In this document: piece after piece, positions 27,001 to 30,000 of the stretch
Layout: the number at the start of each line of letters is the position of its first letter
Position numbering within the stretch: the stretch's first letter is position 1
Assembly (NCBI GenBank): GCA_000002445.1
Contig: CP000070.1
Span: 1 to 64,000 of the forward strand
Length of the DNA stretch: 64,000 nucleotides
Reading direction: 5' to 3'
DNA from: Trypanosoma brucei
Lineage: Eukaryota
Made by a program: the position numbers

Positions 27001-30000
27001 CTCTTTCGAGTCCTTTTAAGTTACCTGGAATAGAACCAAGCGCTCCATTTTTGTTCTTGTTCACTATTTGCTCATTCCACTGGAAATAGTTGCTTCAGTT
27101 CCGAGTCCAACTTTTCGAGAGTTTCTGCGTACTGCTTTTCTTCACCCACACCCAAGGGCAATCCCCCCATTTCTTTTGTCACCTGTTCCAGTAGCCTTAC
27201 CCACGGTACGTCTTCATCTCCCCTCCTATCACCCATTAGAACGTAAACCACGCCTGGTCCCGGAACCGGTTTGTGAAAGAGACTGAGAGGCCACATGTGG
27301 TATCTTGTTGTGAATCCCATGTAAAGCTCAGTTCCGATAGAATTATCGTGTCGATGCCCAAACTTATGGGTGAACTTTTTCACCATTTCCTTAAAACCAA
27401 TTTGAAGATCTCGCACAACAGCACATTGTGCTCTGAGGTAGTTCCATCTCTCCCACGAATCCCTATTTGGTTTCCATACTGCGAGATTGGGACCCGCTAC
27501 ACAATTTTGACAGCAAAGTTTGGTTTTTTCCCTTGATTCGACGTCTGTCGCGCACATGCACAACAAATCTCTACTCAATGTCGCCGGTGGGTTATTTACT
27601 GCCGATCGCGTCGCCTTCTGTCTACACACTCCATCCCTGCTTGCTGTGCCCTCTCTAATCTCTTCCGGCTCACGAGGCACACCATACAAAGCTTGATAGA
27701 TTTTTCTCTCCAAATCACCTGAGTGTGGCACCCAAGGGGTTTTTGTAATATCTACGTATACCTGTGCAGCAGTACCTGCTATCTGTTGGACTTTTTCCAG
27801 TGTTCGGTGGTCCAATCTCGTGTTCGTCGAGATTGTTTCTTCCCGGCGTGCTTCTTCCTGAACCTCCTCCTTCGAATGTGGCTTTTGGTCCTCTTCCTTG
27901 GGGTGTATTTTCTGTTTTTCTTCATGTGAGTGAGATTTCCTATCTTCTTCCTTCGAATGTGATTCCTCTTCATCCGTCTCCTCCCAGTCCGACTCCTCCG
28001 GATCTGCGCTTTCGGATCCTTCTTCCTCCTCGTCTTCTGCTTCAGAATCCGCTCCCCTCATACTTACACCCCCGTGCCTTCTGTTAACCAAATCTTTTGC
28101 GGCATCCCAAAACGCTCTGCGACGTCCACAAGTCTCGTCATCGGTATTTTCACAAATCTTGTTCAATATCCCAAGTCCAGCTACTTGTAAACACCTTGCT
28201 CCAATTCTTGTTGCATCTTTAGTCACTTCTCGGGCCTCTTTTATCCTTCGTAATGCATTTTTGGTTACCTTTATCATGAGACATAATGCAACAAATTCAT
28301 CCTCATTGAGGAAGTCACTCGCCCCAGAAGTAGCCGTGTGGAATGCCAACAGCAACGAAATAACAAAAATTTTAATAGCATACATTTTTTTTCCTTGACC
28401 TTTTTTAAATGTCACCCCTTCTAAAGCAAGAAGGGAAAAATTAAGTCGTCCAACATTTCAGTATGCACTTCACAAAAAGAGTTTATTTGTTAGCGTGGTT
28501 TCAGTTTATGCTTTCAAATACTCCACATTACAGAAGACTACCGGAAATTATTATTTGGGGATGAACGAAAAATAGGCTGTTTTACCTCCGGTTTTCGTCA
28601 CTAAAATATTTGCAGCACTACTCTCTTTCATAGCAACTCTCAATTTAAAAAAAAAGAAATGAAAAATGAAAACTAAACAATACAGAAATGCTCACTTCAC
28701 TCCAAATGGTATCACTACTTTCCAACTTGGTTCAGTGCAACAACAAAGCAGTTTTTTTTATAGTAAAATGCGTCTCTCGTATGACACAGACTTATATGAG
28801 CACTCCAATGTTAATATGTATCGCATCAAAAAGCGTGATAGCCTCACAGAAATTTTTAATTCTTCGTGTAGACAATGCGGGAATCTAATAATGAGTCTAA
28901 TCAAGCCTACAAATATGTTGAATCCCTCACAACTCTCTTCCTCACCATAAATGCTTATTTCGTCCAAAGACATATATGCATAAATATATGCTTCCAAGAT
29001 TTAATATATGCCTTTATAAATGCAAAATGGTTACGGTGGATTTCTCCTGCGGCCATATCGTAGGTATTTTCGATCCAGCCAGATCGAACCCCAGATACCT
29101 CTGCTTGGACTGTTTAAGCATATTTTCTGCAGTGCGTTAACCATTGGTGTGCTATGGAAGTAATCCACCCCCATCCAAGGAATCCTTAACCAGATCGATT
29201 CTGACTTCATTTCGGAATGTGTGGAACGCTCTGACTGACCTCACTTTTTTCACCACCCATATCCTTTTACTACTAGCAAGGAACCGTGCACCCACCCGTC
29301 GGTTTTGTTTATACCGTACCGTAATTCACCTTGAATATAAAAGAAACAATTGTCTTTTTTTTCTGTTACTTTAATAGCGTGCGCACAGAACTTTGCTGCA
29401 GCGCGCTTTTCAGATGCAACCCCCGCTTCGATAACTTTTTCATCCCCTAGTGTAAGTTATCGTGCGTTTTCCTATTATGCCAGTCGCTGTATTTCGTCTG
29501 CGCCGACTCTGACCGTTTTGTTTATTTATGTCCCCCTAATCGTGGTGAACAGCGCACCGTTGGGTCCAGCAAGTCCCCTCCCGTGATGCTACAGCAAACC
29601 CGTGTTTTCGACCCTTACACATCTTTCTATTTTCGTTTTCCGTTATTCCACGTATCCACATCGTTGCCACGGGCCTGCACTTCATCACCACAATCAAAAA
29701 CAGCCGCTTTTTTTTTCTGTTTTTTTTTTTGTGTCAGCACCTCAACGTAATACAATCAAATGCGACCACCGACAACGCATCCCTTATCAGCAGTTCGCCC
29801 CGTGCTTCCTAGAAAAAAAAAAAGTTTCACCTCCACAGGTTGTTTTCGCGCACATCTCAGCCCACTACATAGTAGCGCTGAGAAACTTGACCGACAAAGA
29901 TTCACGCCCTTTCCAACCCTGACACTTGCAAGAATAAAGATGATAGGCGCACGTTTACGGGCGCGCCCATGGTAGCGAAACAGCACTCCCACTGGTGTTC

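What the first reader, a model, noticed from the sequence alone, without database searches (positions are those of the whole stretch)
27072..28415. Intact VSG-related gene on the opposite strand. It has an acidic repeat insert and no GPI-anchor signal.
The 447-aa ORF has a clear signal peptide. The diagnostic VSG N-terminal motif (E-F-x-x-LC-x-x-I-K) follows immediately. The protein also contains a Glu/Ser/His/Lys-rich degenerate repeat (SHSKEEDRKSHSHEEKQKIHPKEEDQKPHSKEE). It ends hydrophilically, with no GPI signal. It points away from the array on the - strand, in a region otherwise full of decayed genes. That pattern fits VSG-related (VR) or ESAG-like genes that have escaped the antigenic-variation role. 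A secreted, non-anchored VSG-fold protein would be functionally interesting.
Basis: partly seen in the sequence, partly recalled or inferred. Interest (0 to 1): 0.6.

Follow-up and report, generated by a model that had tools for sequence, protein, structure and literature searches.

The report
Known anchorless VSG-related gene Tb927.7.180

Summary
The ORF at 27072..28415 (-) exists. Its true CDS starts at the ATG at 28385 and gives 437 aa. That protein is an exact match to Tb927.7.180 (XP_845642.1) of T. b. brucei TREU927 chromosome 7.

The other reported features are all present:
- a signal peptide;
- the N-x3-F-x2-LC motif;
- an acidic insert of about 75 aa, predicted disordered, containing 4 x 9-aa HS(K/H)EE repeats;
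- a hydrophilic C-terminus with no C-terminal domain and no GPI signal.

The closest paralogues are annotated VSG-related (VR) genes, and the two closest also stop at the end of the N-terminal domain. Only this gene has the insert.

The gene is 98-100% conserved in five Trypanozoon strains (pN/pS 0.22). It lacks 70-bp repeats and the VSG 3'-UTR 16-mer. It sits in a small minus-strand unit with ESAG9 at the subtelomere/core strand switch.

Published data show 3.8-fold bloodstream-enriched mRNA. They also show abundant, surface-labelled protein (390 PSMs, cell-surface phylome (CSP) family Fam09).

The parts
27072..28385 (-). CDS of Tb927.7.180 (437 aa plus TGA stop), a VSG-related (VR, CSP Fam09) protein
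   Evidence: ORF. Exact sequence match to XP_845642.1 / Tb927.7.180. Pfam VSG_B E=1.1e-64. Start and stop read directly.
28386..28415 (-). It is probably 5' UTR, not coding.
   Evidence: All five annotated orthologues start at the ATG and are 437 aa. The extension lies downstream of the candidate splice acceptor.
28421..28440 (-). Candidate trans-splice acceptor: polypyrimidine tract TTTTTCCCTTCTTGCTTT followed by AG, which would give a 5' UTR of about 35 nt
   Evidence: Read directly from the sequence. The function is inferred from the general trypanosome splice-acceptor pattern and was not tested.
28320..28385 (-). Signal peptide (about aa 1-22, MYAIKIFVISLLLAFHTATSGA)
   Evidence: Hydropathy maximum of 2.28. 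Published SignalP 0.999 with no signal anchor. Also flagged as having a signal peptide.
28269..28307 (-). Conserved class-B N-terminal motif N-E-D-E-F-V-A-L-C-L-M-I-K (aa 27-39), at the start of bundle helix 1
   Evidence: N27, F31, L34 and C35 are invariant in alignment A1. The motif aligns to NAESYAVLC of solved VSG1954. Helix 28-69 appears in the model.
27846..28073 (-). Acidic insert (aa 105-180; the scored stretch aa 106-177 has net charge -21 and includes 23 Glu, 10 Ser, 7 Asp, 7 Lys and 5 His). It is predicted disordered and lies in the segment that forms the bottom lobe in class-B VSGs.
   Evidence: Absent from all 7 aligned relatives and from the chr11 paralogue. pLDDT is below 50 for residues 106-180. 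Composition. The bottom-lobe position is inferred from the class-B topology rule in PMC10501684 together with the alignment.
27855..27962 (-). Four degenerate 27-nt (9-aa) tandem units with core H-S/P-K/H-E-E
   Evidence: 5-6 of 9 aa and 15-20 of 27 nt are shared between units; codon-shuffle p<0.0002.
27084..27845 (-). C-terminal two thirds of the VSG_B domain (aa 181-434), carrying the invariant cysteines C254, C276, C278, C291, C292, C295 and C321. The protein ends 3 residues later.
   Evidence: The Pfam match reaches profile position 351 of 352 at residue 434 of the 447-aa ORF (residue 424 of the 437-aa protein). Invariant columns.
28386..34019 (.). Divergent strand-switch region between the VR gene (-) and the first core gene (M3 oligopeptidase, +). 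It contains (CA)17 at 31054..31087.
   Evidence: Gene orientations. Tandem repeat. The T. b. equiperdum locus has the same arrangement.
23503..24285 (-). Intact downstream neighbour on the same strand: 'ESAG protein, putative', 260 aa (XP_845641.1, taken to be Tb927.7.170 = ESAG9)
   Evidence: Exact look-up. The accession is adjacent to that of Tb927.7.180. Tb927.7.170 is described as a stumpy-enriched ESAG9 in PMC3957582. The link from accession to gene ID is inferred.
1..13155 (+). Subtelomeric VSG pseudogene array: A- and B-type N-domain and C-domain fragments, 70-bp repeat cores at 686, 4114 and 9448, and 3'-UTR 16-mers at 496, 9255, 11788 and 13140
   Evidence: Pfam hits, tblastn, pattern searches, and sequence.

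Best explanation
This is Tb927.7.180, a member of the T. brucei VSG-related (VR, cell-surface phylome Fam09) family.

Shown here:
- It descends from a class-B VSG but consists only of a signal peptide and the N-terminal three-helix-bundle domain.
- The C-terminal domain, the GPI-addition signal, the upstream 70-bp repeats and the 3'-UTR 16-mer that make a VSG a switchable, anchored coat protein are all missing.
- The sequence is held nearly constant among T. brucei subspecies.
- It lies in a short minus-strand unit with ESAG9, directly beside the divergent strand-switch that starts the chromosome-7 core.

Inferred: it is transcribed constitutively by RNA polymerase II like a housekeeping gene.

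Shown in published data: the mRNA is enriched about fourfold in bloodstream forms. The protein is abundant in bloodstream forms and is reached by a membrane-impermeant surface label.

Inferred mechanism: the protein enters the secretory pathway, loses its signal peptide and reaches the flagellar pocket or cell surface as a soluble VSG-fold protein. Because it has no anchor, it must stay there by non-covalent binding to an anchored partner or to the coat. It cycles through the endocytic system, which explains why it accumulates when TbVdu1, SkpZ or Sec15 are depleted. The lineage-specific acidic, His/Ser-rich disordered insert sits where class-B VSGs have their bottom lobe. It is the most likely site of any specific interaction (cation binding, pH-dependent binding or partner binding). 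Its ligand is unknown.
For: - Identity: exact match to XP_845642.1 / Tb927.7.180.
- VR membership: the nearest paralogues are annotated VR (44% and 37% identity). The gene is assigned to Fam09 together with annotated VRs. The literature calls it a VR protein.
- No anchor: there is no PF10659 hit and no C-terminal hydrophobic stretch. The alignment ends at the N-terminal domain boundary, as do the two closest paralogues, while more distant relatives keep a C-terminal domain and hydrophobic tail. No C-terminal domain relic lies downstream. Published GPI score is 0.058 with 0 TM segments.
- Not a variant antigen: the 16-mer and 70-bp cores occur only in the + strand array. Orthologues are 98-100% identical with the insert intact. 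pN/pS is 0.22, and the CDS is 98.5% identical against 95.5% for the flanks.
- Expression: 3.8-fold higher in cultured bloodstream forms than in procyclics, q=0.
- Surface proteome: 390 PSMs, 30 peptides, 54.7% coverage, fluoresceinated peptides seen, 9.8-fold enrichment.
- Trafficking: abundance rises on TbVdu1, SkpZ and Sec15 knockdown.
- Insert: predicted disordered, unique to this gene, and placed in the bottom-lobe segment.
Against: - How the protein is retained, and what the insert does, are inferences. No partner, ligand or localisation image was found in the searchable literature.
- Surface enrichment is only 9.8-fold, against hundreds to thousands for several GPI-anchored VRs. Much of the pool may therefore be internal or in the pocket lumen.
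- One paper's table lists the protein as 'Predicted GPI' (PMC11732084). This conflicts with the sequence and with two other papers.
- The structure model is only moderate (mean pLDDT 66.7, 8-sequence alignment). Foldseek against the PDB found nothing.
- Transcription by RNA polymerase II from the strand-switch region was not tested.
Confidence: 0.85

Rival explanations
1. It is a freely secreted soluble factor. Having no anchor, it is released from the flagellar pocket into host blood and acts on the host. The cell-associated signal is just material in transit.
For: There is no GPI or TM segment. Enrichment in the surface-labelled fraction is modest at 9.8-fold. From my own knowledge rather than a test here, ESAG9, the family of the same-strand neighbour, has been reported to be released extracellularly.
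Against: Fluorescein-modified peptides and 390 PSMs were recovered from washed, surface-labelled cells. Abundance in cells rises when endocytic or deubiquitylase machinery is depleted, which fits a recycling cell-associated pool.
Confidence: 0.25
2. It is an ESAG7-like subunit: the anchorless chain of a hetero-oligomeric receptor whose other chain is a GPI-anchored VR or VSG-fold protein. This would parallel the ESAG6/ESAG7 transferrin receptor.
For: It is an anchorless VSG-fold protein that is nevertheless surface-labelled. Solved class-B VSGs all crystallise as the same trimer and show concentration-dependent monomer-to-trimer transitions in solution (PMC10501684). GPI-tailed relatives exist in the family.
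Against: No anchored partner gene lies next to it; the neighbours are ESAG9 and a strand-switch region. The two closest paralogues are also anchorless. ESAG6/7 derive from A-type VSG, not B-type (PMC3605285). No interaction data exist.
Confidence: 0.2
3. It is a truncated or atypical VSG archive gene on its way to becoming a pseudogene, kept open by chance.
For: It lies about 14 kb from a VSG pseudogene array. It lacks the C-terminal domain and GPI signal that a functional VSG needs. A VSGnome survey lists the EATRO1125 copy as 'VSG 1125.4880'.
Against: The reading frame, stop and insert are identical in five strains or subspecies. pN/pS is 0.22 and the CDS is more conserved than its flanks. 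The two closest paralogues end at the same domain boundary. There are no 70-bp repeats or 16-mer. The protein is abundant.
Confidence: 0.03
4. It is an internal secretory-pathway or endosomal resident rather than a surface protein, and it entered the surface proteome through pocket or endosome labelling.
For: Its total signal is high but its enrichment is among the lower values in the surfeome list. Its abundance responds to endocytic perturbations.
Against: The C-terminus (…LFPVE) carries no ER-retention-type motif. Labelled peptides were detected directly.
Confidence: 0.1

Closest known systems
T. brucei VSG-related (VR) genes, cell-surface phylome Fam09 (e.g. the chr11 356-aa and chr3 366-aa 'VSG-related, putative' proteins)
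   Same: B-type VSG N-terminal domain, signal peptide and the same cysteine framework. Non-array location at or near strand-switch regions, without 70-bp repeats. Conserved between subspecies and enriched in bloodstream forms. The two closest members also end at the N-terminal domain boundary with no C-terminal domain or GPI signal.
   Different: Only Tb927.7.180 has the acidic, His/Ser-rich repeat insert of about 75 aa. It was labelled 'hypothetical, T. brucei-specific' rather than VR in early annotation. Several other VRs keep a GPI-type tail.
Class-B variant surface glycoproteins (VSG3, VSG11, VSG615, mVSG1954)
   Different: It has no C-terminal domain, no GPI anchor, no N-glycosylation sequon at all, no 70-bp repeats or 16-mer, and no strain-to-strain variation. 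The bottom-lobe segment is replaced or extended by a disordered acidic insert.
ESAG7 (anchorless subunit of the transferrin receptor)
   Same: A VSG-fold protein with a signal peptide but no GPI anchor that is still found at the pocket or surface. It shows the same abundance response in the deubiquitylase/SkpZ knock-down proteomes.
   Different: ESAG7 derives from A-type VSG and is encoded next to its anchored partner ESAG6 in expression sites. Here the domain is B-type, the locus is chromosome-internal, and no partner is known.
Fam1 (Tb927.6.1310) and ESAG2 (Fam13), other b-type VSG derivatives
   Same: Derived from b-type VSG, lacking the canonical VSG C-terminal domain (Fam1), located at strand-switch regions, and expressed in bloodstream forms.
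   Different: Both are predicted to be GPI-anchored and belong to different phylome families (Fam01 and Fam13 against Fam09). Neither appears among the 13 relatives at E<0.001.

Membership tests
VSG class-B N-terminal domain (Pfam PF13206) | Profile match above the curated threshold | tested here: met
   219.3 bits against a cut-off of 25, E=1.1e-64, reaching profile position 351 of 352.
VSG class-B N-terminal domain (Pfam PF13206) | Three-helix-bundle fold resembling solved class-B VSG N-terminal domains | tested here: met
VSG class-B N-terminal domain (Pfam PF13206) | Conserved N-terminal N..F..LC motif and cysteine framework | tested here: met
   N27, F31, L34, C35, C254, C276, C278, C291, C292, C295 and C321 are invariant across 8 sequences.
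Functional VSG (variant coat antigen) | C-terminal domain (PF10659) | tested here: not met
   No PF10659 hit. The protein ends 3 residues after the N-terminal domain. No relic lies downstream.
Functional VSG (variant coat antigen) | Hydrophobic C-terminal GPI-addition signal | tested here: not met
   The last 17 aa have mean hydropathy -0.57. Published PredGPI score is 0.058. One paper's table says 'Predicted GPI', which the sequence contradicts.
Functional VSG (variant coat antigen) | 70-bp repeats upstream and conserved 16-mer in the 3' UTR | tested here: not met
   The 16-mer matches and the 70-bp core matches that flank VSG fragments (686, 4114, 9448) all lie on the + strand within 1-13.2 kb; no match of either pattern lies between 19.8 and 53 kb, so none is near the VR gene.
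Functional VSG (variant coat antigen) | Sequence hypervariability between strains | tested here: not met
   98-100% identity in five strains or subspecies. pN/pS is 0.22.
VSG-related (VR) / CSP Fam09 | Closest relatives are VR genes rather than canonical VSGs | tested here: met
   The best paralogues (44% and 37% identity) are annotated 'VSG-related, putative' in TREU927.
VSG-related (VR) / CSP Fam09 | Located outside VSG arrays and expression sites, typically at strand-switch regions, without 70-bp repeats (Jensen 2009) | tested here: met
   The gene sits on the minus strand beside the divergent switch to the core genes. It has no 70-bp repeat. The locus is syntenic in T. b. equiperdum.
VSG-related (VR) / CSP Fam09 | Restricted to T. 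brucei and conserved among its subspecies | tested here: met
   Only 13 proteins reach E<=0.001 among 1.84 billion representatives. The 12 whose source names were looked up are all from Trypanozoon (T. brucei subspecies and T. equiperdum). Orthologues are shown.
VSG-related (VR) / CSP Fam09 | Published family assignment | tested here: met
   Listed as Fam09 alongside the annotated VRs Tb927.5.130, 5.110 and 2.2060. Called a 'VSG-related (VR) protein' in PMC4619645.
ESAG6/7 transferrin-receptor family | Descent from A-type VSG and membership of Fam15 | tested here: not met
   The domain is B-type; there is no PF00913 hit. The gene is Fam09, not Fam15.
ESAG6/7 transferrin-receptor family | Heterodimer with an adjacent GPI-anchored paralogue | not testable with these tools
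   No adjacent paralogue is present. Protein-protein interaction cannot be tested here.
ESAG2 (Fam13) | Close sequence relationship to ESAG2 and a GPI signal | tested here: not met
   No ESAG2-named protein is among the relatives at E<0.001. ESAG2 is Fam13 with GPI score 0.999, whereas this gene is Fam09 with 0.058.

The most novel reading that the evidence does not exclude
Tb927.7.180 is an abundant, invariant, anchorless VSG-fold protein. It could be held in the bloodstream-form coat or flagellar pocket by co-assembling with class-B VSG trimers or with an anchored VR partner. Its lineage-specific His/Ser/Glu-rich disordered bottom-lobe insert could then act as a cation-binding or pH-switching module in the space beneath the coat. 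No published work in the searchable library addresses the insert or the means of retention.
Probability: 0.15. Interest if true: 0.55.

Novelty: already known. Interest (0 to 1): 0.15.

Why it matters
As a discovery it matters little. The gene is annotated, assigned to the VR family, and already shown to be transcribed, translated and surface-labelled in bloodstream forms.

The remaining value is as a pointer. VR proteins have no known function. This one is among the more abundant non-VSG entries in the surface proteome despite having no anchor, and it carries a unique acidic, His-rich insert. An invariant, exposed VSG-fold protein would be relevant to how invariant proteins survive within the coat, and possibly as a diagnostic or vaccine antigen. 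That question needs experiments, not genome scanning.

Tried and rejected
- Tandem Repeats Finder on 27000..28500 found nothing at score 30 or above. The repeat had to be shown by a register-specific comparison.
- The first word-indexed homology search returned only 2 proteins. The exhaustive phmmer search was needed to see the family.
- The exact-sequence contig look-up failed for the window protein and for P0002. The T. b. equiperdum copies were used instead.
- Rfam found no RNA families in the window.
- Pfam found nothing for ORFs in 14-26 kb or in the strand-switch region.
- Relics of the T. b. equiperdum downstream genes (a 373-aa gene and ESAG1) were sought in the window and not found. 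Collinearity ends near window position 24977.
- The truncated-VSG pseudogene idea and ESAG2 or ESAG6/7 membership were considered and rejected (see the membership table).
The spatial position of the insert therefore rests on alignment plus the published class-B topology rule, not on direct measurement.
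Full report
**Observation.** The mechanical ORF list contains a 447-codon ORF at 27072..28415 on the minus strand, starting at a GTG. It has an ATG at 28385 ten codons in. The 437-aa product from that ATG is an exact, full-length match to XP_845642.1, 'hypothetical protein Tb927.7.180' of Trypanosoma brucei brucei TREU927. The window is therefore the left end of chromosome 7. The downstream core genes agree with this:
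- an M3 oligopeptidase;
- a WD40 protein;
- proline dehydrogenase, which PMC3957582 lists as Tb927.7.210;
- CDP-diacylglycerol synthase-type cytidylyltransferase;
- LRR proteins and a Brix-domain protein.

The stop is TGA at 27074..27072. A polypyrimidine tract plus AG lies at 28440..28421, about 35 nt upstream of the ATG. This looks like a trans-splice acceptor, but that is an inference.

All are present.
- Signal peptide: residues 1-15 form the most hydrophobic window in the protein (Kyte-Doolittle 2.28).
- C-terminus: no other hydrophobic segment exists, and the last 17 residues average -0.57.
- Motif: NEDEFVALCLMIKV begins at residue 27. In an alignment with seven VR and B-type VSG relatives, N27, F31, L34 and C35 are invariant, while the I-K part is not.
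- Repeat: the run resolves into four 9-aa units (SHSKEEDRK, SHSHEEKQK, IHPKEEDQK, PHSKEEVQE) at window 27962..27855. Units share 15-20 of 27 nt, and none of 5000 codon shuffles reached the observed 27-nt periodicity. The repeat is too degenerate for Tandem Repeats Finder.
- Insert: the repeats form the C-terminal half of an insert of about 75 residues (aa 105-180; the scored stretch aa 106-177 has net charge -21 and includes 23 Glu, 10 Ser, 7 Asp, 7 Lys and 5 His).
- Other points: the protein has no N-x-S/T sequon and 11 cysteines.

**What it is.** Pfam VSG_B (PF13206) matches at E=1.1e-64, 219 bits against a cut-off of 25. The match runs to profile position 351 of 352 at residue 434 of the 447-aa ORF (residue 424 of the 437-aa protein). 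No VSG C-terminal domain is detected.

An exhaustive phmmer search of 1.84 billion representative proteins gives only 13 hits at E<=0.001. The 12 whose source names were looked up are all from Trypanozoon. The best three are:
- the orthologue cluster;
- a 356-aa chr11 protein (44% identity);
- a 366-aa chr3 protein (37% identity).

Both paralogues are annotated 'VSG-related, putative'. A profile built from the eight-sequence alignment hits solved class-B VSGs, with VSG1954 at E=4.7e-22 and VSG11 and VSG615 at 1e-14 to 1e-16.

**What it lacks.** The alignment shows that Tb927.7.180 and its two closest paralogues all end at the N-terminal domain boundary. More distant relatives continue into a cysteine-containing C-terminal domain and a hydrophobic tail. 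tblastn with those relatives finds no C-terminal domain relic downstream of the stop.

The VSG 3'-UTR 16-mer occurs four times (0.1 expected), and the 70-bp repeat core matches that flank VSG fragments lie at 686, 4114 and 9448. All of these are on the plus strand within 1-13.2 kb, interleaved with A- and B-type VSG pseudogene fragments. No match of either pattern lies between 19.8 and 53 kb, so none is near the VR gene.

The acidic insert is absent from every relative. Other relatives carry different small insertions at the same place, for example a poly-Gly run in P0012. According to the structural classification of VSGs, the class-B bottom lobe is encoded between bundle helices 1 and 2 (PMC10501684). 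The insert lies between model helices 83-104 and 193-214 and aligns to the corresponding stretch of VSG1954. I therefore place it in the bottom-lobe segment.

**Conservation and context.** Orthologues in T. b. gambiense, T. b. equiperdum, T. equiperdum OVI and T. brucei EATRO1125 are all 437 aa and 98-100% identical, with the insert intact. Against the T. b. equiperdum gene there are 11 synonymous and 9 non-synonymous differences (pN/pS 0.22). The CDS is 98.5% identical, against 95.5% across 13.4 kb of collinear flank. That locus has the same divergent arrangement with the M3 peptidase.

In the window the gene sits in a short minus-strand stretch, with three regions around it:
- a 5.6-kb divergent strand-switch region lies upstream of the gene (28386..34019);
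- the plus-strand core genes begin beyond that region;
- the plus-strand VSG array ends about 14 kb downstream of the gene.

The next ORF on the same strand, 23503..24285, is an intact annotated 'ESAG protein, putative' (XP_845641.1). By adjacent accession it is Tb927.7.170, described as a stumpy-enriched ESAG9. The region is therefore not wholly decayed.

The chr11 paralogue in T. b. equiperdum is likewise a single chromosome-internal gene close to a change of strand. This matches the published description of VR genes as lying in strand-switch regions without 70-bp repeats (PMC2771046), and of VSG/ESAG 'islands' on the opposite strand to their neighbours (PMC2854126).

**Expression, from the literature.**
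- Jensen et al. 2009 list Tb927.7.180 as 3.8-fold higher in cultured bloodstream forms than in log-phase procyclics (q=0, signal peptide predicted, 0 TM). Levels are above the mean in slender and stumpy forms and below it in procyclics.
- Gadelha et al. 2015 include it in the bloodstream-form 'surfeome'. The entry shows 390 PSMs, 30 peptides, 54.7% coverage, fluorescein-modified peptides detected, 9.8-fold enrichment, SignalP 0.999, GPI score 0.058, 0 TM and CSP family Fam09, the family of the annotated VRs.
- Zoltner et al. 2015 call it a VSG-related (VR) protein with a signal peptide and no GPI, and report an increase after TbVdu1 knockdown.
- It also rises after Sec15 and SkpZ knockdown. 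That last table lists it as 'Predicted GPI', which the sequence contradicts.
- No paper in the searchable library addresses the function of VR proteins or the insert.

**Mechanism.** The shown parts are these. It is a conserved, bloodstream-enriched secretory protein made only of a class-B VSG N-terminal domain, without an anchor, abundant and reachable by a surface label.

The inferred parts are these:
- It is transcribed constitutively from the strand-switch region together with ESAG9.
- It reaches the flagellar pocket or surface as a soluble protein and stays cell-associated through non-covalent binding to an anchored partner or to the coat.
- It recycles through the endocytic pathway, hence its accumulation when that pathway is perturbed.
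- The disordered acidic HS(K/H)EE repeats provide a specific interaction surface. S-x-E motifs and regularly spaced His suggest phosphorylation, cation binding or pH-dependent charge switching, all untested.

The rivals are free secretion, an ESAG7-like receptor subunit, an internal resident and a decaying VSG. The last is effectively excluded by conservation and protein evidence.

**Verdict.** The feature is an already annotated, already named member of a known family with published transcript and protein evidence. Interest as a scan finding is low. The only open question is the unknown function of an abundant anchorless VSG-fold protein and its unique insert, which requires bench work.

Noticed in passing
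window 23503..24285 (-): An intact 260-aa gene annotated 'ESAG protein, putative' (XP_845641.1) lies 2.8 kb downstream of the VR gene on the same strand. By adjacent accession it is Tb927.7.170, a stumpy-enriched ESAG9. It has no Pfam hit. Together the two genes form a small VR+ESAG 'island' beside the strand switch.
   Followed up: partly
window 1..13155 (+): This is a VSG pseudogene array. It holds B-type fragments at 116-394, 2351-3672, 7847-8815 and 10120-11724, and an A-type fragment at 5047-5595. It also has 70-bp repeat cores at 686, 4114 and 9448 and 16-mers at 496, 9255, 11788 (perfect) and 13140. The copy at 10120-11724 aligns to nearly the full length of a VSG, but its longest ORF is only 171 aa.
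   Followed up: partly
window ~24977 / L001 13410 onward: Collinearity with T. b. equiperdum (95.5% over 13.4 kb) stops near window position 24977. Beyond that point equiperdum carries a 373-aa signal-peptide/TM-tailed gene with weak ISG/VSG-A-like hits and an ESAG1. The window has ESAG9 instead, with no relic of those two genes.
   Followed up: partly
window 13200..23500 and 24300..27000: About 13 kb between the array and the VR/ESAG9 pair has only short ORFs with no Pfam hits and no VSG similarity. Its nature was not determined; it could be retroelement remnants or other subtelomeric filler.
   Followed up: no
window 50782..51284 (+): A 213-bp tandem repeat (about 2.3 copies, 80-86% identity) lies inside the 537-aa leucine-rich-repeat protein gene (50638..52251). 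It corresponds to duplicated LRR modules.
   Followed up: no
window 31054..31087 and 39609..39661: A perfect (CA)17 microsatellite lies in the divergent strand-switch region. A perfect (TTA)17.7 lies about 50 nt upstream of the proline dehydrogenase start codon.
   Followed up: no
alignment A1, columns ~118-150 (bottom-lobe segment): Different relatives carry different insertions at the same site: poly-Gly in P0012, a Cys-containing stretch in P0010, and the acidic repeat here. P0014 and P0015 lack most of the segment. The bottom-lobe region appears to be an indel hot spot in VR and B-type proteins.
   Followed up: partly
literature, PMC11732084 Table 1: This table lists Tb927.7.180 as 'Predicted GPI'. 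That conflicts with the sequence (hydrophilic C-terminus), with PMC4619645 ('GPI: No') and with the PredGPI score of 0.058 in PMC4587319.
   Followed up: yes
Jensen 2009 supplementary file 3: Tb927.3.2500 is another 'hypothetical' protein with a VSG_B domain (P0032/P0015 cluster, which has a GPI-like tail). It sits in the same expression cluster as Tb927.7.180, which suggests several unannotated VR-like genes share bloodstream-enriched regulation.
   Followed up: no
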